DNA from: Chiloscyllium plagiosum
Taxonomy: Eukaryota
Length of the DNA stretch: 64,000 nucleotides
Assembly: GCF_004010195.1 (NCBI RefSeq)
Contig: NC_057719.1
Coordinates: forward strand, 25,993,641 to 26,057,640
Reading direction: 5' to 3'
In this document: positions 1 through 56,882 of the stretch, in pieces
Layout: each line of letters opens with the position of its first letter
Numbering within the stretch: the first letter of the stretch is position 1
Translations under genes and position numbers: made by a program
Notes under the pieces: model-generated
What the model saw: the letters and a program-made list of their open reading frames with translations, nothing else
Database searches by the model: none
What the model was told of the DNA's origin: nothing

Positions 1-1065
1 TCTTCCACCGGTGGTTCAGGAGCTAGAATCCCTGATATCTAGTGTAGAAGTATTTGTGTCTGATAGCCCAAGTTTTACAATGAGAGCAGTGCATACTCAT
101 TTTCTTCACATCGATCTGAAAATGCAGTGATCATAAAGTTATGCATATCTGGCCTTTGTAGTTGCTTTCCAACTCTCTGGCATCTACTTCAACAATATTT
201 CCTGCAGCAGTTATCAACTACGACTGAGAGCAAATAGAGCAGTCAAATGGGAATGCTGGAAAGAAAGGATGTCTTTGGTGGGGAGAGAACAGATGGGAAA
301 AGGGAACAGACAGTTAAAGGAATTCCTCAGCTCAATTCAACCTACATGATCATTCCATTTCCAGTACTTGGTGTAAACAGTTCCTTTTCATCCTCAATTT
401 CTCTTCTTCTTTGTAATGAACTGCTGCCAGCTGAGTAAATAATCCCTGCTTCATGGTTGTAGGCCATCTGTGAGTTCAAATCTCGTGTTCCACTGAAAAT
501 ATTTGTAAAAGTGCCAGAGAAGTTTACATACTCAATTCACAAGAAATTTAGTAATCTGTTTCACACCAAAAGTTCCTATTTCCCTCAATAACTCTTCATA
601 TTCTGAAGTCAACTCCCTTTATTCTTAATCACTGCGTGCCTATCTCAGAAGGTTATTTGAACATTGCTCTATCAATTTTGGACACTGGGAATGGTTTATC
701 CACTTATGTCTCATCCCAAGCCTCCAGGTCAATCTTATTTCTCCATTGCTTGCTTAATGCCGTATTTTTTATCCCTCTACTGTCAGTGGATTTCAACTGC
801 TTAGGTCTTATGACAGCAGAAATCTCCCTCCAAGTGTTTGAAACTTGCCACATTTCTTTCCTCCTTTGAGGTACTTCTTAGATTCTATTACTTTAACCAA
901 GCTTTGGGCCAACTGCCCTGGCCTGTGTTTGGTCAGGTTTGAAATTTCTTTGATAACACTCCTGCAAAACACCTTGGGATGTTTTATTACTTTATTGGCA
1001 TGATATTGATACAAGTAGTTCATGTAACTCATCAATTATACTGTGGGCAGAGCTCTGCATTTTTC

Positions 1066-1345
1066 TGAGGTAAAAACAATGACTGCAGATGCGGGAAACC
1101 AGATTCTGGAGTAGAGTGGTGCTGGAAAAGCACAGCAGTTCAGGCAGCATCCAAGGAGCAGGAAACTCGACGTTTCGGGCAAAAGCCCTTCATTGGAGTA
1201 AAGCTCTCTATTGGAGTAAGCAAATTATTCTGCCTAATTTATTTTGTCCAAGTGTTTTACTGTTTCAGCCTTTACAAAATCCTACACAACGGATCTCGGT
1301 TTAAAACGAACTGCTGTGCTTTTCCAGCACCACTCTACTCCAGAA
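1066..1345 (-). mobile_element. PLE-derived fold-back insertion with captured local DNA
   Basis: PLE terminal repeat 1066-1191 with a truncated hammerhead (reverse complement atgaagggcttttgcccgaaacgtcga) and an inverted partial copy at 1308-1345. Flanked by the 12-bp duplication tctgcatttttc (1054-1065, 1346-1357). Confidence 0.8.
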
Positions 1346-2589
1346 TCTGCATTTTTCCATCTTATTCTGTATGTTGCTATGTTGAGGGCCCTTACCTTCC
1401 ACTTCCAAAGCTATAATGTTTAATTTGACTCTTGGTCTCATATAACCTTTCAAAATATTGATCTATTTCCAATTTCCAATATTTTCTTCACCATACTGTT
1501 GTTAGGCCTTTAAAAATGAGTTTATCATCAAATTATTCTGCCTAATTTATTTTGTCCAAGTGTTTTACTGTTTCAGCCTTTACAAAATCCTACACAATGG
1601 ATCTCGGTTTAAAACTAATGCACGAAGTTATAATGTGATCATATACAGAATATGATGGAGGATATGGATTTCTGAATTAGTTGCATTTGGGTAAATTAAT
1701 TGGTTTGAAGATATTGCAGCATCTCCCCAGAGTGCTAATCTTGTTCTGTTTGGTAGTTTGAATAGTTTTTTCTTCAAGTTAGTTAACGTTACTTAACTCA
1801 GACATTTGGACAACAGAATGTGATGTGAAAGTCTAAATTACTGTTGCAATACAAAGAAGGACAAGAGCCAAGAATACTTATCCTACATTTGCATTCTGAA
1901 ATTGGACCGAAAACAAATGAAAGAATTGCATTTCTGAAGCCTTTAAAGGATTATATTATGAAACAATACACAATCTTTGCCTTTCAATAAGAAAATAATG
2001 AAGTCTGCAGCATGGTGTGTTATAGACTGTAAAACAGAGATATAGTCTGTGATTTAAATGACTACATGCTTACTCCAATAGAGAGCTTTACTCCAATCCT
2101 GTAATGTGTTAATACAATGTGCAACCAGTTTAAACATATTGCTTATTATATTGCTTTTCTAACTCCCATCTGAGCTATAAGCTTTTTAAACCAACATTAC
2201 TGGTTGCATAAAAACCTACACGTATCAAACAAATAAAAAGTAAATGCTTCACATATACTTTATAATACAAAAATAAATGTCAGATATTATTAGATTTTCA
2301 TCAAGGTTTTTAATAGTTGACTATTTTATGCATGTAATAAAAATTGACAGCATGACATTGTAATGAGTTGAATGACATTCCAATTGCCAAATGATGCCTA
2401 CATGCACAACTTAGATAGAAATAGTACAAAGTCAGCAATCAACCCATTTTATTAATCATATAAATATTTCAGCTTTTTAATCAGATTAGTAGGTGAAGGT
2501 CTTTATGATTATTACTTATATCACCTTTCATAACTGTTTCTTTTCTGGTTCAATTTGTTACATAACAAAAGAAAATGTTACACTAGCTG

Positions 2590-9082: not shown

Positions 9083-10820
9083 GTTGTGATTGCACTGGAG
9101 AGGGTGCAGAGGAGATTCACCAGGATATTGCTTAGGATGGAAAGTCCCAGTTATAAGGAGAGACTGAATAGGTTGGATTTGTTTCCCTTTGAGCAGAGAA
9201 GAATGAGGGGGAATCTGATTGAGATAAACAAATTTATGAGAGGCATAGGCAGGGTAGACAGTGAGAATCTTGCCTCCATGGCAGATATATCTAAGACCAG
9301 AGGGCATAAGGTTAAGATGAGGATTTACGGGAAATCTGAGGAGTCTAGCATGTTTCGAGAAGTTTTGTAGCTCAGATTGAAGTTCAGATGTAAGTTTGCT
9401 CGCTGAGCTGGAAGGTTCGTTTTCAAACGTCACCTGGGTAACGTAATCAGTGAGTCTCTGGTGAAGCACTGGTGTTATGAACACTTTCTATTTATGTGTT
9501 TAGGTTTCCTTGGGTTGATGATGTCATTTCCAATGGTGATGTCATTTCCTGTCCTTTTTCTCAAAGGGTGGTAAATAGGGTCCAAGTCAATGTGTTTGTT
9601 GATAGAGTTCCAGTTGAAATGCCATGCTTCTAGGAATTCTCATGTGTGTCTCATTTGGCTTGTCCTAGGATGGATGGGTTGTCCCAGTCAAAGTGGTGTC
9701 TTTCCTCATCTCTATGTAAGGATATTAGGTGATAGTGGGTCATGTCTTTTTATGGTTAGTTGATGTTCATGTATCCTGGTGGCTAGTTTTCTGCCTGTTT
9801 GTCCAATGTAGTGTTTGCTATAGTTCTTGCAAGGTATTTTGTAAATGACATTCATTTTGCTTGTTGTCTGTTTAGTGTCTTTTGAGTTTATTAGCTGTTG
9901 TTTTAGTGTGTTGGTGGGTTTGTGGGCTACCATGATGCCAAAAGGTCTGAGAAGTCTGGCAGTCATTTCTGAGATGCCTTTGATGTAGGGGAGAGTGGCT
10001 AGGGTTGCTTAATGCATTTTGTCTGCTTGTTTGGGTTTGTTGCTGAGGAATCAGTGGACTGTGGTCATTGGGTACCTGTTCTTTTCGACTACACTGCATA
10101 GGTGATTCTCCTCTGCTCTGCATTGTTCCTCTGTGCTGCAGTGTGTGGTGGCTCGTTGATAATAATGTTCTAATGCAGCTTCGTTTGTGGATGTTGGGAT
10201 GATTGCTTCTGTAGTTCAGTATGTGGTCCGTTTGTGTTGTTTTCCTGTAGACACTGGTTTGAAGTTCCCCATTGGCTGCTTGCTCTACTGTGACATCTAG
10301 GAATGGCAGTTTGTTGTTGTTTTCCTCCTCTTCAGTGAATTTTATGTGGGTAAGGATATTATTGATGGTCTTGAAGATTTTCTCTAAATTGTTACATTGA
10401 AACAGGAAATGACATCACCACAGGAAATGACATCACCAATCCAAGGAAACCTAAACAAATAAATAGAAAGCGAGTCATAACACCAGTGCTTCACTGGAGG
10501 CTCAATGATGATATTACCTAGTATGGTGGTGAAATGTCTGAAAACGAACCTTCCAGCTCAGCAAGCAAACTTACATCCAGAATGTGAGGAAATTCTTTCT
10601 GCCCAGAGGGTGGTAGAAACATGGAACATGCTGTCTGTGAGGGTGGTAGAGACAGAAACCCTCGTAACATTTAAGAAGAATCTTCATAAGCACTTAAAAT
10701 GCAAAGACATGAAAGTGTATGGACCAACTACAGGCAAATGGTGATTCATGTAGTTTGGAGTTTGTTGGTCAACACAGACATGGTGGCCTGAAGGGCCTTT
10801 TTTATGCTATATGACTCTAA
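9083..10820 (+). mobile_element. CR1 LINE 3' fragment split by a Penelope insertion
   Basis: LERVQRRFTR...YKERLNRLDLF...RRMRGNLIE at 9086-9330. The CR1 continues at 10581 (SAQRVVETWNML...TFKKNLHKHL) and ends in the tail tatgactcta. Confidence 0.85.
9350..10580 (-). mobile_element. Penelope-like retroelement fragment (GIY-YIG endonuclease) with inverted terminal repeat
   Basis: ORF 9712-9966 has NVIYKIPC...HYIGQTGRKLATRIHEH (GIY-YIG of PLEs). About 9385-9553 is an inverted repeat of about 10402-10580. A degenerate hammerhead lies at about 10501-10541. Approximate target duplication aatctgagga/aatgtgagga (9333, 10581). Confidence 0.88.
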
Positions 10821-15231: not shown

Positions 15232-15964
15232 AAAAGTGACATGACACCAAGTTATCGTCCAACAGGTTCATTTGAAATCACAAGCTTTTGGAGCGCTGCT
15301 CCTTTATCAGGTGACTTCATAAACTCCGAAAGCTTATGATTTCAAATAAATCTGTTGAACTATAGCATGGTCTCGTGTCACTTCTGACTTTGTCCCTCCC
15401 AGTCCAACACAGCCACCTCCACATCATGGCTACCATCAACACTACAAACTGTTGGCTCAAAGTGGAGACGATCTCCAAGAAGATCACAGCCATCGACATA
15501 GACATCATGTTTCTGCAGAGATACAAGAAAGCAGACGAGATCCCTGACAGGAATACAGATCACAAATCCACTCAAGTCAATCGACAACACAGACTACGCT
15601 GAAACTCTGCTGTTGCTCTTCTCACACACTCCTCAACCATCTTGTACACCAGCTCTATAGCAGACACCTCAACCTTGAAATCAAGACAGAGTCCCTATTC
15701 TCAGTTTGCACTCAAGACATAGCAGACCAGCTACAAGACACTGCCAAGCAGACGAGGCAACGGAATTATGCCACCTACGTACACACCAAGAATGGGAAAC
15801 CTGAGAAACTTGGAAAAAAAAGACTTGGGAAAAAAAAGACTTCACCTGACAAAGGAGCAGGGATCCGAAAGCTTGTGATTTCAAATCAACCTGTTGGACT
15901 ATAATCTGGCATCGTGTGACTTCAGACTTGTTCACCCCAGTCTAACATCGGCACCTCCACATCA
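15232..15964 (+). mobile_element. PLE fragment (AGCT-hammerhead family): inverted repeat, terminal repeat, probable ORF start, second terminal repeat
   Basis: Three copies of the ...ccgaaagcttgtgatttcaaataaacctgttggactata... repeat (one inverted). The second copy runs into ATG at 15426 (MATINTTNCWLKVETISKKITAIDIDIMFLQRYKKADEIP), which I take to be the PLE ORF N-terminus. Confidence 0.7.
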
Positions 15965-29843: not shown

Positions 29844-30149
29844 ATTCTTTGATCTAAGCTGGGCATTGGGAAAGGGTTCTAAGATGGGTAATCTGGATGG
29901 CTTTGCCCTTAAATAGCAACAGAATTATGAATGTGTGCTTGGATTTGTAATGAAATATTAGCCATGCCACTTATGTGCACTCAAATATACTCATTTTTTG
30001 TTCTCATCTCACTATATGCATGGTGAAGCACAACTCCTGGTTGGCAGCATTTGACCTGTTGCACAACTGAGCTTTAATAATGCACTAGGGCGCGGCATCT
30101 AGGGAAATCCTAGCAGTGGTAAGTACTTTGCCTTTGGTGAGAGTATGGC

Positions 30150-31194
30150 ACATTGACAGATATACCTTCAGCAGTCTATGTTAGGGAGAAAGGATTGGAT
30201 ATGCACACATGGCTAGGGAACTGGATTTGTAAGTCATGGAGATGGAATGGTCAGTTAGTAACGGGATTAAACCTGAGTCTAAGAAAATTAAATTGAAGGT
30301 TTGGTGATCAGGAGCTAATGTAGGACATCATGGTCTTGAAGTGGGACAGGATGCAGGAAACAGAGGTTTGAATTGACCGTGAGAATGGGAGGTAAAACCA
30401 ATGACTGCAGATTCTGGATTAGAGTGGTGCTGGAAAAGCACAGCAGTTCAGACAGCAACTGAGGAGCAGGAAAATCGACGTTTGGGCAAAAGTCCTTCAT
30501 CAGGAATAGAGGCAGAGTGTCTTCAGGGCAAGGCATCATAGAGATGAATAAGGCGTGATGGTAATAAGTTGAGTTTTGGTGAATATTGTTAATCATCTTG
30601 TAAACCCTCATAGAGAGAAATAATCCATGAAACTCACTAAAATTCACACTTAGCTAAAAAACTGTAAAATTCGGTCCCATATGATATCCATCCACTACCT
30701 ATTTCTATAACATTGACCATTCCTACCCTTATTTTGGCCCACCTGCAGCAAAAGTGTTGACTCAATTAGTCAAAAGCTGACCTGATTGGTCTCCCATTCT
30801 CTCCACCCTGCAGGCACTCTGCCTCTATTCCTGATGAAGGGCTTTTGCCCGAAATGTCGATTTTCCTGCTACTCGGTTGCTGCCTGAAATGCTGTGCTTT
30901 TCCAGCACCACTCTAATCCAGAATCTGGTTTCCAGCATCTGCAGTCATTGTTTTTACCTCCCATTCTCACGGTCAATTCAAACCTCTGTTTCCTGCATCC
31001 TGTCCCACTTCAAGACCATGATGACCTACATTAGTTCCTGATCACCAAACCCTTCAATTTAATATTCTTCGACTCAGGTTTAATCCCGTTACTAACTGAC
31101 CATTCCATCTCCATGGAATCCAGTTCCCTAGCCATGTGTGCATACCCAATCCTTTCTCCCTAACATTGACAGATATACCTTCAGCAGTCTATGT
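30150..31194. mobile_element. About 1-kb composite palindromic PLE insertion carrying flanking DNA
   Basis: Inverted arms 30181-30528 and 30806-31164. Outer 32-bp direct repeat at 30150-30181 and 31163-31194. Inner 11-bp repeat ctcccattctc at 30791-30801 and 30958-30968. Confidence 0.85.
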
Positions 31195-31968
31195 GCCACA
31201 CTGTAGAGTTCTTTCCCTAACTCCAACTGCATCCTTGCCCTCCCTAAGAACCTCTTTAAAATCCTTTTTTCCCCCATTATTAAAGGACCTAGTGTCACTT
31301 AAGAACATTGCATTAGTCAGAGTCCACCTAACCAGTGGGAACTTTGAGATAATGACAGCTATTGGGATGGCATTAAGGGGTAGGCATATATCTAGCAGAG
31401 GTGGAACAGGATGTCTAACTCCTTTGGGACAGAACCTGAAAACATTCTTTCTGCTCCAGTAGAGGTAAAATCTCTCACTCACAGATTCTCAAACTTTAGG
31501 TAGATGCACAGAGTGGCTTGGCCCCCTATTTTCTCTAACTATTAAATTTAATCTGTGCCCTGTCTCTCGCACACGCAAGCTCTCTGCTTGTTTATTCCAA
31601 TAATGTTACATGAGTGCAAAAATCATAACGCAATCAATGTTCATCATGTGAAACTTTCTGTTACAAATAAACTGCCTAAGGAAGACCATATGGTGTTTTC
31701 TTACATGAAAAACAAATTACATGCATGACCAAACTACAGCTACTATACTCATAATCTTAAAGGTTATAGTAAAAGAAGTGTGTGTGGCATTGACCTTCCT
31801 ATTGTTATTATGTCAGCTGTGTAGGTAGTCCTCTCACCTCTGAATCAGATACATGAGAGTTCAGAGACCTAAGCACAAAACTCAGGCTAACATTCAAGTG
31901 CACTGTCAAAAGTACAGACACTATGTCTCAGGTGCACATACAAACTCCCCTGGCACTATTCCAGACAA

Positions 31969-32896
31969 GAGCTGAAAATGTGTTGCTGGAAAAGTGCAGC
32001 AGGTCAGGCAGCATCCAAGGAACAGGAGAATCGACGTTTCGGGCATAAGCCCTTCTTCAGGAATGAGGAAACCACTTTCCTCATTCCTGAAGAAGGGCTT
32101 ATGCCCGAAANNNNNNNNNNNNNNNNNNNNNNNNNNNNNNNNNNNNNNNNNNNNNNNNNNNNNNNNNNNNNNNNNNNNNNNNNNNNNNNNNNNNNNNNNN
32201 NNNNNNNNNNNNNNNNNNNNNNNNNNNNNNNNNNNNNNNNNNNNNNNNNNNNNNNNNNNNNNNNNNNNNNNNNNNNNNNNNNNNNNNNNNNNNNNNNNNN
32301 NNNNNNNNNNNNNNNNNNNNNNNNNNNNNNNNNNNNNNNNNNNNNNNNNNNNNNNNNNNNNNNNNNNNNNNNNNNNNNNNNNNNNNNNNNNNNNNNNNNN
32401 NNNNNNNNNNNNNNNNNNNNNNNNNNNNNNNNNNNNNNNNNNNNNNNNNNNNNNNNNNNNNNNNNNNNNNNNNNNNNNNNNNNNNNNNNNNNNNNNNNNN
32501 NNNNNNNNNNNNNNNNNNNNNNNNNNNNNNNNNNNNNNNNNNNNNNNNNNNNNNNNNNNNNNNNNNNNNNNNNNNNNNNNNNNNNNNNNNNNNNNNNNNN
32601 NNNNNNNNNNNNNNNNNNNNNNNNNNNNNNNNNNNNNNNNNNNNNNNNNNNNNNNNNNNNNNNNNNNNNNNNNNNNNNNNNNNNNNNNNNNNNNNNNNNN
32701 NNNNNNNNNNNNNNNNNNNNNNNNNNNNNNNNNNNNNNNNNNNNNNNNNNNNNNNNNNNNNNNNNNNNNNNNNNNNNNNNNNNNNNNNNNNNNNNNNNNN
32801 CGGTCCTTGAAGAAGGAGGCCATCTGTGTTGTACGGTTTTGGAACTGGTCCTCCTGGGAGCAGATGCAGCAGAGACGAAGGAATTAGGAATATGGG
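31969..32896. mobile_element. PLE insertion with head-to-head hammerheads and ORF fragment; spans a gap
   Basis: Palindromic ...cccttcttcaggaatgagg...cctcattcctgaagaagggc... Positions 32801-32896 on the minus strand encode PYS*FLRLCCICSQEDQFQNRTTQMASFFKD (PLE RT C-terminal motif). 14-bp duplication actattccagacaa (31955-31968, 32897-32910). Confidence 0.85.
32111..32800. other. Assembly gap (N run)
   Basis: Run of N inside a PLE insertion. Confidence 1.
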
Positions 32897-35800
32897 ACTA
32901 TTCCAGACAATGTAGGGAAATTACCCCTGAAGTCCTGGCCAACATTTATCTCCCTGTGAATCACTGGGACATATTACGTGGTCATTATGAAATTGCTGCT
33001 TGTTAGGGCTTACTGTGTACCAGCTGACTGCTACATTTCCTAAAATAATAGCTGTTGTGTATCTTGGCTCAGAGCTGCACAGATCTGACTCAAACCTAGT
33101 CGCATGCATGCATAAATGCTTTATCAAAAATGCCTTTAAAAGGGTCTGCAGCCATAAACTTACTGCATCTCCCAGGTTTGCCTCTCAGCACACAGCACAG
33201 TCAGCAGTCAACAAATACACACAATCATACACCAAGTAATTGAACACAACAGTCATTACACATTAACACGATTGCATTGGCTGTAAAGCTCTTAGAGATG
33301 CCTTAAGATCATGAACGGCACTGCCTAAATCCAAGTCTTTTTCTTTTAATACTTGATGTCAGAAGGTAACCTTGAATATTTTTTTCATTGCTTTTATGTT
33401 TCATTTCATCATATAAGAAAGTTTACATATAGATCTTCATCTCAACTGTACTAATAGACACAGGAAGAATAATTGTGAATTGACCAAAAAATGAATGAGG
33501 CTGGAGGAGGTTACAGAGATATAGAAGCGTAAGGTCAAAGAGAAACTTTAAACAGGGGTGAAATTCCAAATTTGTGATGTGTTTCTGGGAGTAGTCGAGA
33601 GTGGGGTGCTGGAAAAGAACAGCAGGTCAGGCAGTAACCAAGGAGCAGAAACACAAAGATCTTGTAGTTAGAACGGAGGCAGGAATTGAGGCAAGGGTGG
33701 AGGTTGTTTATTGAGGAGTGAGTATTGGAAGTTTAAAAGAAAAAGGGGCAGTGCACAAGAAGGGAGAATCATCAACAAAAACACCTAACGAGGGGGTGAG
33801 GAGGAAGGTTGGGTGGTCAGTTGTGTCGTAGGTATAGATCCAAGAGAACAGCAGGTCAGTCTTATGGTCAATATGAGCTCAGACAGGGTATGACGGAGAT
33901 AGACTTGAGAAAGATTGCTAGCACAGGGAGTTTAGTCTGTTGGGTTAGTGAACTTGAGGGAAGCAGCAGATGATCCTTGTGACAGTGAATTCCATGAGGG
34001 ACGTGGGGGGAGGGCTTTAAGAAGACAAAGTACAGTAAAGAGTCTAGGATTTCCTTACATTTTTAAATGGAGCAGGTCTGCAGTTTTTAGCAGGAGTATT
34101 TTATAAATACTGCATAGTATTTATGTTGTCCACACAGACCTAACACCAGATGGTGAAACCAGTTGTCTGTTCATGCTTGTATCCCTTGGTCTTAAAAGGA
34201 GAACGGCTGGGTTGAGAGATGGTAATGATCTTATTGGAAACCAGGGCATCAAAGTTGGAGGTGAGAGTGCAGTTTGAGAAAATCAATAGCTGCAGAAATG
34301 TTACAGTGAATGGAGGGCCAGAAATTAGCCGGTTGGGATGAGAAAGCACAGTTATAAGTAAATTGAATAAATGGATTTAACCCTATTACATGATGTTGCT
34401 GACAGATATTCACTCTGTGAGCTTCAGGGGTATCACCATTGCCAGATCTTCCACCCACAGTGTCTTTGATGAAAACTTTAACTATGGCAACCCTATGAGT
34501 CAACTCGAATAGTTATTGTTATCTCCAAATTTCCTCCCACCAAATGTCATGGCATATAGTTCATTGCCTTTTCACAGAATACTGAGATTTAGCCTTCCTC
34601 TTATCACTGCCATCCTTCATTTTGCCACACTTGAAACATCTCATTCACCTACAATTTCTAGCTTCAGAGAAATCCAGCTTGAACCATTAGGCAATATCTA
34701 TGCCTTTAAAGATACGTGTTTTGCCACATATCCTTGGTGCCATATTGATCAAGTGTTATCCTGACGTCAAAGACTGGTCTTCTCACTTATCTCTCGCACT
34801 AAGCTCATGATTGCATACCTGAGATCATAATTGCAATGCGATTTGGAGCCTAATGGTTCTGATGGAGCTAAAATTACAAGTTGGTTTGATACTTATTGCT
34901 GACATTGATGACTTCTTTCATCATTTTTTGATGATTGGAAGGCTGATGAATAACATTGTACTTCACTGGATTTGATTTAGCTTTTTCTTTATAGATCCAC
35001 CACAATGTTAGACAAATACTGCTGTCACAGCTTGCATGGGAACAGCTAGCTTCAGCATACAGATCTTCAGCGTGATTTCCAGAATTTGTCAGGACCCATA
35101 ACTATTGCTTTTATTTGATCCGTATTACTTCTTAATACATTGAGATAAATTTGATGGATACCAGTATCTGTAATAATGGGGACTTGATGAAACAGTTACA
35201 TTTGGTCATGCATTAGGCACTTTTAGCTGAAGATAACTGCAAAACTATCAAATATCTGACTCTGACACACTGAGATTCCAATTTTGGGAATGGAGATGTT
35301 CATAAAGCTTCCTCCAAGTTGGCTGGATGGTCATCACCATTCTTGACACAATGTGGTAGGGATGCAGGGCTCTGACTCATTGGCTATGGAATCATTAAGG
35401 TTTTTCTGTAGCCTGACATTTTCAGTGTTTAGCAGTGTAACCATTTCCTCACACTGATACCTCATTCTAAGATTTAACTGGTATTGCTCCTGTTTCTTCT
35501 ACAAAACCCACTGAACCAGGTTGGCTTCCTGACAAGTAGGCATTGAAGTAATCCTGTGTGCTGTTGAGTCCCAAAGCCTGCTCAAACAAAACTACATTTT
35601 TCGGTCTGCAGCATCTTCAACAGAGGTAGTTCCTTGCCTCTGGGCAGCCACAAATTAATGGGGGAGAAACCATACCTGAGGGGAGTTTTAGTGTCATGCC
35701 ACTATTGCCTCATTTGTATTTCAGTGCTGTCATCAGTAAGTTAAAAGACAACTGCAGCCAACAGAAATGTTCACACTGCAAGCTTGAAATAGAAAACTAT

Positions 35801-50726: not shown

Positions 50727-51170
50727 ATCAAAGACAAGCAAAATACAATTTATTCATACACTATAGTTAAAATACAACAACAAAAAAAGAAAAGAAAGGA
50801 ATTGGCTTAGCTGTAACTCTATTGCAAAGCTTAACAGAATAATAGATTAGCTAGCTGCTAAACAGTAAATGTTCGAATGTAGTAACATCCCATAAACACA
50901 CCCTTGGCAAAAGGTGAATTTAGAAAAAATTGCCTCACATGCAACTCCAGCAGTCCAGGAGGGAAAAATATCACAAGAACTCAGAGAGTGTAACAAGAAG
51001 TGATGTACTAAAGCAATCGAACCAGCAGCAACAGTTACTGAAAATTAAAATCCTGCTTCGTTGGGAGCATGACCACACCCATTCAGGCTGCCTCTATTGT
51101 TCCAACTCCAAAAAAAGCCCCAAGGCCTTACAAGCTTTATGAGCTTTCAATAGACATCTTTGCACCTCTG

Positions 51171-51931
51171 CAGAAAGTGAGGACTGCAGATGCTAGAGAG
51201 TCAGAGTCAAAAAGTATAGCACTGGAAAAACACGGCAGGTCAGGCAGTATCCGAGGAGCAGAAGAGTCGATATTTTGGGCATAGGCCTTTCATCAGGAAG
51301 GGGGCTGAGAGACAAATACAAGGGTGAGGGTGGGGCTGGGGGTAAGACAGCTGGGATGGCGATAGGAGAATGCAGATGAGATAGGTCAGTGGGGAGGGTG
51401 ATTTGATGGGGTGGGGGGTGTACCTAATGAGGGAGTCACAGAGGGAATAGTCTCTGCGGAATGCAGATGGAGATGGGGAGGGAAATATATCTCTGACCGT
51501 ACACTTCCCTCCTCACCTCCATCCAAAGCCCCAAAGGATGTTTTTACAGCCGGAAGAGCTTTTCATGCACATCCACTCACCTCAACTGTCATGTCCATTG
51601 CTCTCGATGTGGTCTCCCCTACATTGGGGAGACAGGACGTCAACTTGTGGAGTGTTTCAGGGAACATCTCTAGGATACATGCAGCAAATGACCTCACTGC
51701 CCTGTGCCTGATCACTTCAAATCCCCCTCCCAGTCCACCACGAACCTCCTCCACCGCCAAATCCAGGCCACCCAACATCTGGCAGAAGAACATCTCATCT
51801 TCTGCCTTGGGACCTTTCAACCACACAGCATCAATGTCAACCTCAGCAGTTTCCAAATCTTCCCTTCCCCACTTCATCCCAGCCTCGGATACTGCCTGAC
51901 CTGCTGTGCTTTTCCAACACCACACTCTTCA
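51171..51931. mobile_element. PLE insertion: inverted 3' end plus forward GIY-YIG fragment
   Basis: Plus-strand HCSRCGLPYIGETGRQLVECFREHL at about 51595-51670. Inverted terminal repeat at 51171-51300. 15-bp duplication with one mismatch (51156-51170, 51932-51946). Confidence 0.85.
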
Positions 51932-53491
51932 ATCTTGGCACCTCTGTCTTAAACCCTTTCTTTAAAGAGACAGGACAAAATAAACCTCTTAACGCCACAC
52001 TATCGTCACAAGTGACTGTAGTTTTCAGAAAAAAAGTGGATGAAATGCAAGACAACCCATGCCTGGTCATTCAAAATGGCATAGAGAGGAATAAACATCA
52101 GAAACTGTTCAAAAATTTAAAGAAGCAGAGAAAAGGATTTCATATATTCATATGTTAGTACCACACACCACGATTCCAGTTCGTGAGGGCAGACAATTCA
52201 TTCTTGACCACTTTACGCCATCATCTACACTCAAAATTACCCTCAATGTTTACTGTTATAAAGTGGAATCTTACAGACAAATTACAACACTACAGTAGGT
52301 CTGAATGTCCAACTGAGCCTCTGAAATCTAAATGAGGCCGCAGTTTGTGCATGGGCAGTTATCGGTTAGATTTTAGTGCCCCCACCGTGAATGTTTTCGT
52401 CATGTCAGAGGCACTTAAATAGATTGGGTAGCTTCACCACCTTCGCAAGTACCCTCAAGCTGCCCCGATAATACAGGGGCACTGAAATCAGCCTGCTGCT
52501 TTTAAATAAATAATTAATGGTAACTTAGGCTGGTCAACAAGTTTGTGTAACAAGCTGCACATGCCAAAATACTTGGCACAGTCAACTTGTTTAAGAACTT
52601 GTATAAGAAAAGGCCAGAAATGAAGTGGGAGGTGGGGGGGTGATGGTGGGAGCACACCATTTCAGGAGCGTCATTTGTGCATTGGTGCAACCCTCCAGCA
52701 AGCTCAAGACTGCTGCCATCCCAACACAACACCATTCACCACCTTCCTTTTCATGCCATCTACCCACCAGAAGTCAATCCCCATCCTCCTCCCTCTCCCA
52801 TTTCCCTCTGCACCAAAGATGCAGTCAACCTTGGGATTCAGCAATCTGGGAAGGCCATGATCCCCTTTAAGCTCCTTTCTGGCAGTGCCCACTTCTGACG
52901 TCTGGCACTGCCAAGAGTGATGGAACTACCAGCTAATCAGATAGGTCAGCAATTCCCATTGGGCAGCCCTCCTGCTGAGTCGGCTGGCTGCAGCATGTTG
53001 TGGCTACAGTATGGTTTGTATGGAGACAAACTGGCTACTGGCTGATTGGCCAATACCCATCTGTCCAAAACAAATGGGTTGAATTCAGATCACTGAACTT
53101 CTGAGATATTATAGATCTATTTTCATTTCAAGCAATTCTGTGGCAGATATTAATTAAATGCGAGAAAATCTGCAAGGATGAATTAACATATTACTGCATA
53201 ATCACCCAGAGATTCTTGTTAGAAAACCTGGGTCTGTAATGCAGCTATAAAAACTTACAAATGTAAAATAAAGTCATTTACGAAGCCACTTTCTTTCTGT
53301 GCAGAAAGTATTAAATGACAATATTCAAATAAATGCTTTTACTAATTGGTTTGCAATGGACATTCTGTTTTTGATCAAGAACTAGCACATAAATGGTAGT
53401 AGAGGTAGCAACTTCAATTTGCTTTCATTTTTCATTAATGAATGGGTCTCTTGCCTTGTTTCCTTTCAGAGCTCTTTTACCTGTATTAAGA

Positions 53492-55081: not shown

Positions 55082-55300
55082 CCATGATTTGGAGATGCCG
55101 GTGTTGGACTGGGGTGTACAAAGTTGAAAATCACACAGCACCAGATCATAGTCCAACAAGTTTAATTGGAAGCACACTAGCTTTCGGAGCGACGCTCCTT
55201 CATCAGGTGATATCACCTGATGAAGGAGCATCACTCTGAAAGCTAGCGTGCTTCCAATTAAACCTGTTGGACTATAACCTGGTGCTGTGTGATTTTTAAT
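55082..55300. mobile_element. PLE-derived head-to-head element (AGCT-hammerhead family)
   Basis: Inverted arms centred on ggtgatatcacc. 12-bp duplication gttagatagtat (55070-55081, 55301-55312). Confidence 0.88.
55175..55209 (-). ncRNA. Minimal type I hammerhead ribozyme, best-preserved copy
   Basis: CAC-CTGATGA-a-GGAGC-gtc-GCTCC-GAAA-GCTA-GTG: stem I CAC/GTG, stem II GGAGC/GCTCC, palindromic stem III AGCT, predicted cleavage after CUA. Confidence 0.75.
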
Positions 55301-56106: not shown

Positions 56107-56491
56107 TTATCCAAAACAATAATATCCATCATCAAAGTCATCTTTGGATTCTTTATTCATAGATTCACTGTTAAGTGAATCTGTTGTTACACATTCGTCT
56201 GAGAAGGGATCTAGGTCGGAAGGTGTGCAGTCACCTGGCAAGTCGTCAGCCAGCGTGTCCAGGTAACTTCCCACTGAGATTTCATCAAGCCCATCACTGC
56301 CATCTTGCAGGCTATTCCAGCTGCCTTGGAGTGAAATGCTCTGGCTTTCTGCCAAGCTATAGAGACTGCTCGTCAAGCTGCTCCCCCTGCTCGCCATGTT
56401 GCCTTTCTCCTCTATTATCCACTTGATCGACTCAATACCTTCATTGATGGACAACAACTGATGTATCAATTGCCCTGAGGCGAGCCGTAAT
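56107..56491 (-). CDS. LURAP1L: Last coding exon of leucine rich adaptor protein 1-like (LURAP1L); 5' end apparently frameshifted; first exon not found in window
   Basis: Minus-strand ORF reads LIHQLLSINEGIESIKWIIEEKGNMASRGSSLTSSLYSLAESQSISLQGSWNSLQDGSDGLDEISVGSYLDTLADDLPGDCTPSDLDPFSD...DDGYYCFG*. This matches my recollection of the LURAP1L C-terminus (RQLLVINESIESIKWMIEEK...DGSDGLDGISVGSYLDTLADD...YYCFG). The expected upstream motif (ARLRAID) lies in another frame at 56485-56465. The ORF-finder start at 56550 is probably intronic. Confidence 0.88.
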
Positions 56492-56882
56492 CTGAACAGT
56501 GCAACGGCACCTTTTTTCTCTCTCACTGTTCCTTTTCCTTCCACCCTCATTGCTCAATCCAGGGACACTTTCACTCAAGAGCTCCTACACCCAGACAGAG
56601 AGATGTTAGACCAGCATTGAACCTTGGATCTTCTTGGTCAGCCTGTCTCAGCTACACACTGAATAAATGTACAGATTCCTGAAGAGAACCCAAGCATCCA
56701 CAATGAAATACACAGCTGCCATGTTCCAGAAGCAATTTTTAATTTTAATTTTGTTGCAATCCTGTTGGGGTAATGCTATTTTCTTTACCCCAGTTACATT
56801 TATATAGGCTATAAAAGAACCAAACAATGACAATATGCACCGGTAAACACTTTAATGAAATTTTTGGTTTCTACAAATAAGT

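What the first reader, a model, noticed from the sequence alone, without database searches (positions are those of the whole stretch)
30150..31194. Target duplication within a target duplication: apparent PLE-mediated transduction of a whole donor locus
Seen: an outer 32-bp direct repeat (30150-30181, 31163-31194). Inside it is a forward unit made of about 260 bp of non-PLE DNA (30529-30790), an 11-bp repeat, a PLE mini-element with hammerhead, the same 11-bp repeat, and about 200 bp more non-PLE DNA. An inverted copy of the PLE plus the 200-bp segment (30181-30528) precedes it. Inference: a mini-element first inserted elsewhere (11-bp duplication), then a read-through RNA with both flanks was re-mobilised and inserted here in fold-back form. 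This would mean these elements shuffle host DNA and that the element's own 3' end need not be the priming end.
Basis: partly seen in the sequence, partly recalled or inferred. Interest (0 to 1): 0.75.

Follow-up and report, generated by a model that had tools for sequence, protein, structure and literature searches.

The report
Penelope fold-back insert in palindromic site
A 1-kb fold-back structure holds a short Penelope-like retroelement end plus about 460 bases of unrelated DNA between two identical 32-base repeats; it likely arose when that element carried its neighbouring DNA into a break at a small palindrome, but no source locus was found and a local copying error remains a serious alternative.

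Summary
The anatomy is real: an exact 32-bp outer repeat, an exact 11-bp inner repeat round a ~155-bp Penelope-like (PLE) end, and an inverted copy of PLE plus 194-bp flank (15 substitutions in 341 columns). The flanks have no other copy in the window and are not the PLE tail. Best reading (0.45): both overhangs of a symmetric break at the palindrome primed on one read-through PLE template. Main rival (0.30): the flanks are native and a template-switching polymerase made the inverted arm; a 4-bp junction repeat and the one-sided indels fit this. The deciding test (donor locus, empty site) could not be run: no genome is held and no reads were listed. PLE capture of host DNA is published; flank outside the element's 3' end would be a variant.

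The parts
30140..30149 (.). Left outer palindrome arm (a): 8 of 10 bases complementary to 31195-31204
30150..30181 (+). Outer 32-bp repeat T, left copy; its own ends are an 8-of-10 inverted repeat round a 12-nt loop
30182..30380 (-). Inverted copy of flank F2; carries 7 nt where the right arm has 1, and 11 nt across that indel match 29940-29950
30381..30391 (-). Third, inverted copy of the 11-bp inner repeat
30392..30528 (-). Inverted copy of the PLE end, from forward position 30806 on; 14-nt deletion between ATCTG repeats and 1-nt deletion in the ribozyme core
30529..30790 (+). Flank F1, 262 bp, no other copy in the window, no protein family match
30791..30801 (+). Inner 11-bp repeat, left copy (inferred target duplication of the first PLE insertion)
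30802..30957 (+). 5'-truncated PLE end; at least 18 related arms elsewhere in the window; damaged minimal hammerhead motif starting at 30831
30958..30968 (+). Inner 11-bp repeat, right copy; first 3 nt shared with the family's 3' end
30969..31162 (+). Flank F2, 194 bp, not the family tail, no poly(A) signal on this strand, no poly(A) tail
31163..31194 (+). Outer 32-bp repeat T, right copy
31195..31204 (.). Right outer palindrome arm (b)

Best explanation
A young Penelope-like end and the DNA on both sides of it were likely copied from another, unfound locus into a break at a small palindrome, where both broken ends would have primed copying at the same base and so left a head-to-head fold-back between two 32-bp repeats. 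Shown: the repeats, the arms, the palindrome centred on the repeat, the identical start of both arms. Inferred steps: (1) a truncated PLE end inserted at a donor locus and duplicated 8-11 bp; (2) soon after, a read-through RNA F1-PLE-F2 was bound by PLE protein; (3) the target was cut at mirror-image positions of its palindrome, by the PLE endonuclease or by a host nuclease acting on a hairpin, leaving two 32-nt 3' overhangs that both end in ATGT; (4) each overhang primed at the same template position 200 nt past the element's end; (5) one copy ran 630 nt, the other 350 nt, and they were joined 5' to 5'.
For: Exact direct repeat round the whole unit. Head-to-head pairs inside a target repeat are usual here: 6 of 13 other PLE loci examined. 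With the insert removed the site pairs at 16 of 20 symmetric positions, 8 of 10 inside and 8 of 10 outside the repeat, as one old palindrome would; 5 of 127,840 centres in the window and 1 of 374,532 in shuffles reach 16; none of the 13 other sites or the inner site shows such symmetry. Both primer ends read ATGT and are followed by the same template bases, whereas in 5 of 5 ordinary pairs with both arms measurable the arms begin at different places. The PLE end was young when duplicated: 1 shared against 7 private substitutions in the part that can be polarised. A lizard PLE protein cuts and extends both strands, does not need ribozyme cleavage, and gives a minor product probably primed off the 3' end of longer RNAs (PMC11167929). 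PLE repeats are reported to move host DNA, with an empty allelic site (PMC3846280).
Against: No donor or empty site was seen. 32 bp is outside the 9-16 bp of the 10 credible repeats among 13 other loci. A 16-of-20 stem with a 12-nt loop folds at only -10.2 kcal/mol and is a weak cruciform; if it played no part, hitting it has odds near 4e-5. The two junctions that would be neighbours under the local model share GGCA (chance 2-9% by register slack) and a 6-bp stem (6%). Both indels that can be polarised lie in the left arm, and a third looks templated from the left flank, which fits one old and one new arm better than two new ones. The short arm stops 25 nt before the ribozyme core, outside the zone (9 nt before it at most) of the 18 other arms. 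No poly(A) signal or tail marks an RNA end.
Confidence: 0.45

Rival explanations
1. Local inverted duplication. F1-PLE-F2-T-right flank is native. A polymerase leaving the left flank paired with arm b, crossed the T hairpin twice (which writes T in direct orientation), copied F2 and the PLE end backwards and returned at the start of F1. The 32-bp repeat only mimics a target duplication and no RNA is involved.
For: The left side is an inverted copy of PLE-F2-T-b except that T is flipped (alignment). Arm a as microhomology is cheap (2 sites at 8/10 in 2.4 kb) and an 8/10 hairpin ends at 1.6% of positions. GGCA at both junctions. Indels fall on the left arm, one matching 29940-29950. Local templated copies occur in this window: the filler of the pair at 1066-1351 comes from 1529-1618 (98%) and 2067-2097 (100%). 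Template switching that inverts spacers of short inverted repeats is described (PMC8604942).
Against: Needs four switches, two within the outer 4 bases of T. Arm a differs from b at 2 of 10 where 4.4% is expected if copied (p 0.07). The arm includes a young PLE end and stops within 4-8 nt of its 5' boundary, a coincidence for a DNA copy. Great-ape short-range switches had median 12 and maximum 128 nt (PMC7954356; their search range was limited), against 347 here.
Confidence: 0.3
2. The unit F1-PLE-F2, or F1-F2 with a nested PLE end, is one copy of a low-copy mobile family; the insertion mechanics are as in the best explanation but the cargo is a repeat, not a one-off donor.
For: Absence from 64 kb excludes only very abundant families. 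An earlier AI note (e1-7858329; unchecked) describes a 200-300-copy PLE-spread host-derived repeat in this genome.
Against: No match to any repeat or translated repeat in the rest of the window, no Pfam or protein match for the flank frames tried, no second ribozyme core in the flanks.
Confidence: 0.13
3. Same break and duplication of T, but the segment was copied from distant DNA by repair synthesis or a polymerase jump, with no read-through RNA; the PLE end is a passenger.
For: DNA-templated fillers exist at a PLE pair in this window; no RNA hallmark at the ends; templated genomic insertions accompany L1 events (PMC11702581).
Against: Those fillers come from within 1 kb; here no source lies within about 30 kb either side apart from N gaps. 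A random 630-bp piece would seldom be centred on a young PLE end.
Confidence: 0.09
4. Assembly error in a gapped short-read assembly.
For: The window has two N gaps, one 0.9 kb away; 32 is a common assembly word length (recalled).
Against: The arms differ by 15 substitutions and 4 indels, so they are not one molecule read twice; both T-F2 junctions would still need to exist in reads.
Confidence: 0.03

Closest known systems
PLE-mediated mobilisation of host DNA in Adineta vaga (Arkhipova et al. 2013, PMC3846280; passages read; review PMC6431247, passages)
   Same: Host sequence plus PLE terminal repeat inside a target duplication, with an adjacent inverted repeat copy.
   Different: There the cargo lies between pLTRs, the pLTR forms the ends, the duplication is 8 bp and an empty allele was shown. 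Here host DNA forms both outer ends, the repeat is 32 bp at a palindrome, and no empty site is shown.
Standard PLE insertion unit with adjacent inverted 5'-truncated copy and 30-40 bp tail (PMC8557442, passages; PMC11167929, parts 1-2 of 4 read)
   Same: Head-to-head arms, 5' truncation, hammerhead motif near the end, both strands primed.
   Different: The extension beyond the element end is 200 bp, absent from other copies and present in both arms; both arms start at one base.
L1 3' transduction and twin priming (PMC12016303, passages; PMC11702581, passages)
   Same: Flank carried by read-through; second primer anneals by microhomology; two cDNAs in opposite orientation inside a target duplication.
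   Different: No poly(A) tail, no L1 sequence, and the two cDNAs overlap by 347 nt from the same start instead of abutting (overlap median 12 bp in PMC12016303).
Template switching at short inverted repeats and palindrome-mediated breaks (PMC8604942, PMC7954356, PMC7999016; passages)
   Same: Short imperfect palindrome at the junctions, flipped centre, inverted copy of neighbouring DNA.
   Different: The copied stretch is longer than in those surveys and contains a young retroelement end.

Membership tests
Endonuclease-bearing PLE insertion (inner element) | Sequence identity to a dispersed family linked to a GIY-YIG/CCHH-type frame | tested here: met
   18 related arms; the copy at 51500-51900 reads CSRCGLPYIGETGR..H in front of the same end (motif label recalled, no Pfam test of that frame: one search tested another frame and found nothing)
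Endonuclease-bearing PLE insertion (inner element) | Short target duplication and 5' truncation | tested here: met
   11 bp, 8 unambiguous
Endonuclease-bearing PLE insertion (inner element) | Intact minimal hammerhead ribozyme | tested here: not met
   Core motif present but altered in both arms; no ribozyme-like fold; no Rfam match
Retrotransposon-mediated transduction | Donor locus holding element plus the same flanks | not testable with these tools
   No genome held; no run listed; absent from the window
Retrotransposon-mediated transduction | Empty site with one copy of the duplicated target | not testable with these tools
   Same; only a virtual site could be examined
Retrotransposon-mediated transduction | Target duplication of the family's usual length | tested here: not met
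   32 bp against 9-16 bp in 10 of 13 other loci
Retrotransposon-mediated transduction | Flank is not part of the element consensus | tested here: met
   3 of 3 same-subfamily copies reaching the 3' end lack F2; window only
Retrotransposon-mediated transduction | RNA hallmark (poly(A), splicing) | tested here: inconclusive
   None, but ordinary copies of this family have no poly(A) either
Local template-switch inverted duplication | Microhomology at each switch | tested here: inconclusive
   8/10, 4 nt, 4-8 nt and 2-4 nt can be assigned, but after the fact
Local template-switch inverted duplication | Flanks native at the orthologous position | not testable with these tools

The most novel reading that the evidence does not exclude
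Shark Penelope-like elements carry out 3' and 5' transduction of neighbouring DNA by priming 200 nt beyond their own end, and hairpin-forming palindromes are cut symmetrically so that both overhangs prime on the same template base, leaving long duplications and fold-backs of host DNA. Long-duplication PLE insertions would then map to palindromic targets genome-wide.
Probability: 0.25. Interest if true: 0.62.

Novelty: new variant of a known kind. Interest (0 to 1): 0.38.

Why it matters
How PLEs make their inverted arms and where they can start copying is still open (PMC8557442, PMC11167929). A verified case would be genomic evidence that both target ends prime independently on one template by microhomology, that priming can lie far outside the element, and that this very dense repeat family (about 19 arms in 64 kb besides this one's forward copy) can shuffle host DNA as L1 does. 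If the local model is right it is one complex template-switch event and a warning that an exact flanking repeat need not be a target duplication. Either way it is one old, non-coding event about 25 kb past the stop of a LURAP-domain exon, with no sign of function.

Tried and rejected
Whole-genome search: no genome is held. Public runs: one search, 29850-31950, DNA, restricted to PacBio libraries; none was listed, which is no evidence; my library filter may have cost the result, and no reads were laid. Metagenome scans with a 28-nt F2 pattern and a 21-nt PLE pattern: 0 and 0; as the abundant PLE itself was not found, the F2 blank says nothing. Look-ups of earlier findings by sequence for F1, F2 and the region: 0, but the positive control with the PLE end also gave 0, so these are uninformative. 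Protein searches with chance reading frames across the junctions: nothing; the profile-free full scan gave 1 hit, a threonine/serine-rich repeat protein at 41% over 29 residues, rejected as compositional. Pfam: 1 of 11 frames matched (LURAP). Old repeats spanning any candidate native junction: none. A 38-column likeness between F1 and the F2-T junction had p 0.017 in 1 of 16 comparisons; not significant after correction. Bacterial promoter scan irrelevant. Literature: 8 searches showed no paper describing flank outside a PLE end in both arms or a palindromic long-duplication PLE target; only listings were seen for most, subscription papers are missing, and no supplements were read (the figures S1-S2 of PMC11167929 and S9-S10 of PMC11702581 may bear on this).

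Full report
Observation. The described structure is in the sequence. Reading left to right: 32-bp repeat T (30150-30181); an inverted arm (30182-30528); flank F1 (30529-30790); an 11-bp repeat; a PLE end (30802-30957); the 11-bp repeat again; flank F2 (30969-31162); T again (31163-31194). T is 32 of 32 identical. The arm matches 30806-31162 with 15 substitutions in 341 columns and four indels; at 4.4% divergence an unchanged 32-mer has probability 0.24, so arms and repeat can be of one age.

Context. The DNA is vertebrate: a LURAP-domain exon lies on the minus strand at 56107-56553 (Pfam E 1e-38), so the finding is about 25 kb past its stop. 'Shark' comes from earlier AI notes and from my recall of the repeats; I did not test it. 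The PLE end has 18 other arms in 13 loci of the window. One locus has a broken frame with a CxxC-YIGET motif in front of the same end, the endonuclease signature of PLEs as I recall it and as PMC8557442 describes it. Ten of the 13 loci have exact flanking repeats of 9-16 bp, three only 5-7 bp. Six of 13 are head-to-head pairs. In 5 of 5 pairs with both arms measurable the two arms end at different places, one 26-50 nt inside the element (the figures for the second subfamily are approximate because it diverges from the query near its end).

Are the flanks PLE? Not as far as the window shows. The three other copies of this subfamily that reach the 3' end pass directly into their own target repeat. 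F1 and F2 match nothing else in the window as DNA or in translation. This excludes only very common families. Both arms share one substitution that 8 of 8 other aligned copies lack, against 7 private ones, so the arm was copied from this PLE end early in its life. The hammerhead motif is damaged in both arms, in different ways, so the template may have had it whole.

Joining 30181 to 31195 gives a palindrome centred on T: 8 of 10 pairs inside T and 8 of 10 outside, round a 12-nt loop. Five of 127,840 centres in the window reach 16 of 20, three of them PLE fold-backs; 1 of 374,532 in shuffles. None of the other 14 sites tested is symmetric. As a result both strand ends that would prime copying read ATGT, and both are followed by the same F2 bases. 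The palindrome is therefore part of the cause under any model.

Reading 1, insertion (0.45). The palindrome was cut at mirror-image positions, leaving two 32-nt 3' overhangs. Cutting a cruciform at its base gives this geometry (PMC7999016, passages), and a lizard PLE protein, predicted to be a dimer, cuts and extends both strands (PMC11167929). Two near-identical primer ends found the same place on one template, 200 nt past the element's end. That paper reports internal initiation as the main path, a weak product probably primed off the 3' end of longer RNAs, and no need for ribozyme cleavage. This explains the direct repeat, its unusual length, the common start and the head-to-head form with one cause. 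It needs a donor that I could not look for and a palindrome that is weak as a cruciform.

Reading 2, local copy (0.30). The left side is also an inverted copy of PLE-F2-T-b with only T flipped. If F1 to the right flank is native, a polymerase that left the left flank, paired with b, crossed the hairpin twice and copied backwards would write exactly this. In its favour: GGCA at the two junctions that would have been neighbours (2-9% by chance); a 6-bp stem across them (6%); both polarisable indels in the left arm and a third with an 11-nt match 280 bp upstream; DNA-templated local fillers at the pair 1066-1351. Against it: four switches, 2 of 10 mismatches in arm a (p 0.07), and an arm that happens to stop within 4-8 nt of the PLE's 5' boundary. 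All these small probabilities were computed after seeing the sequence and are not independent.

Other readings: a copy of a low-copy composite family (0.13), distant DNA-templated capture (0.09), assembly error (0.03). The confidences are judgement, not computed.

What could not be done. No genome is held. The one search for public runs, which I restricted to PacBio libraries, listed none, so no reads were laid. Collection scans and look-ups were blank, with failed positive controls. Donor and empty site, the two defining features of a transduction, are thus untested.

Comparison. PLE capture of host DNA between terminal repeats, with an empty allele, is published (PMC3846280, passages), as are inverted adjacent copies (PMC8557442, passages) and, for L1, transduction, twin priming and templated insertions (PMC12016303, PMC11702581, passages). 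The preprint 10.64898/2026.07.22.740005 (two passages) added nothing. In eight searches I saw no report of host flank forming both outer ends of a PLE unit or of a palindromic long-duplication target; most hits were seen as listings only.

Verdict. Real structure, plausible but unproven transduction, one event, no sign of function. A new variant of a known kind if reading 1 holds. Interest 0.38.

Noticed in passing
window 1054-1357: Head-to-head PLE pair with a 12-bp target repeat whose centre is filler copied from nearby DNA: 31 nt inverted from 2067-2097 (100%) and 90 nt from 1529-1618 (98%).
   Followed up: partly
window 56107-56553 (-): Exon with a LURAP domain (PF14854, E 1e-38), likely LURAP1-like by recall.
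   Followed up: partly
window 51162-51946: Head-to-head PLE unit holding a broken endonuclease-type frame (CxxC, YIGET) and a 9-bp repeat; its forward end lacks the ribozyme part.
   Followed up: partly
window 31955-32910: PLE unit with a 14-bp repeat spanning an N gap; the far end is an inverted piece of PLE coding sequence.
   Followed up: no
whole window: 12 of the 18 other PLE arms begin within 10 nt of the ribozyme core and none more than 9 nt upstream (one search lists 13 between -9 and +10 if the +10 arm is counted).
   Followed up: partly
window 55162-55261 and 15253-15364: Fold-back pairs of two other repeat families, also with CTGATGA-type or GAAA-type centres (alignments).
   Followed up: no
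window 30698-30717 and 31151-31170: F1 holds a 10-bp exact match to the F2-T junction; p 0.017 in 1 of 16 comparisons, probably chance.
   Followed up: yes
window 9872-10414 (-): Frame that looks like the reverse-transcriptase end of another PLE family (by recall); no Pfam match.
   Followed up: partly
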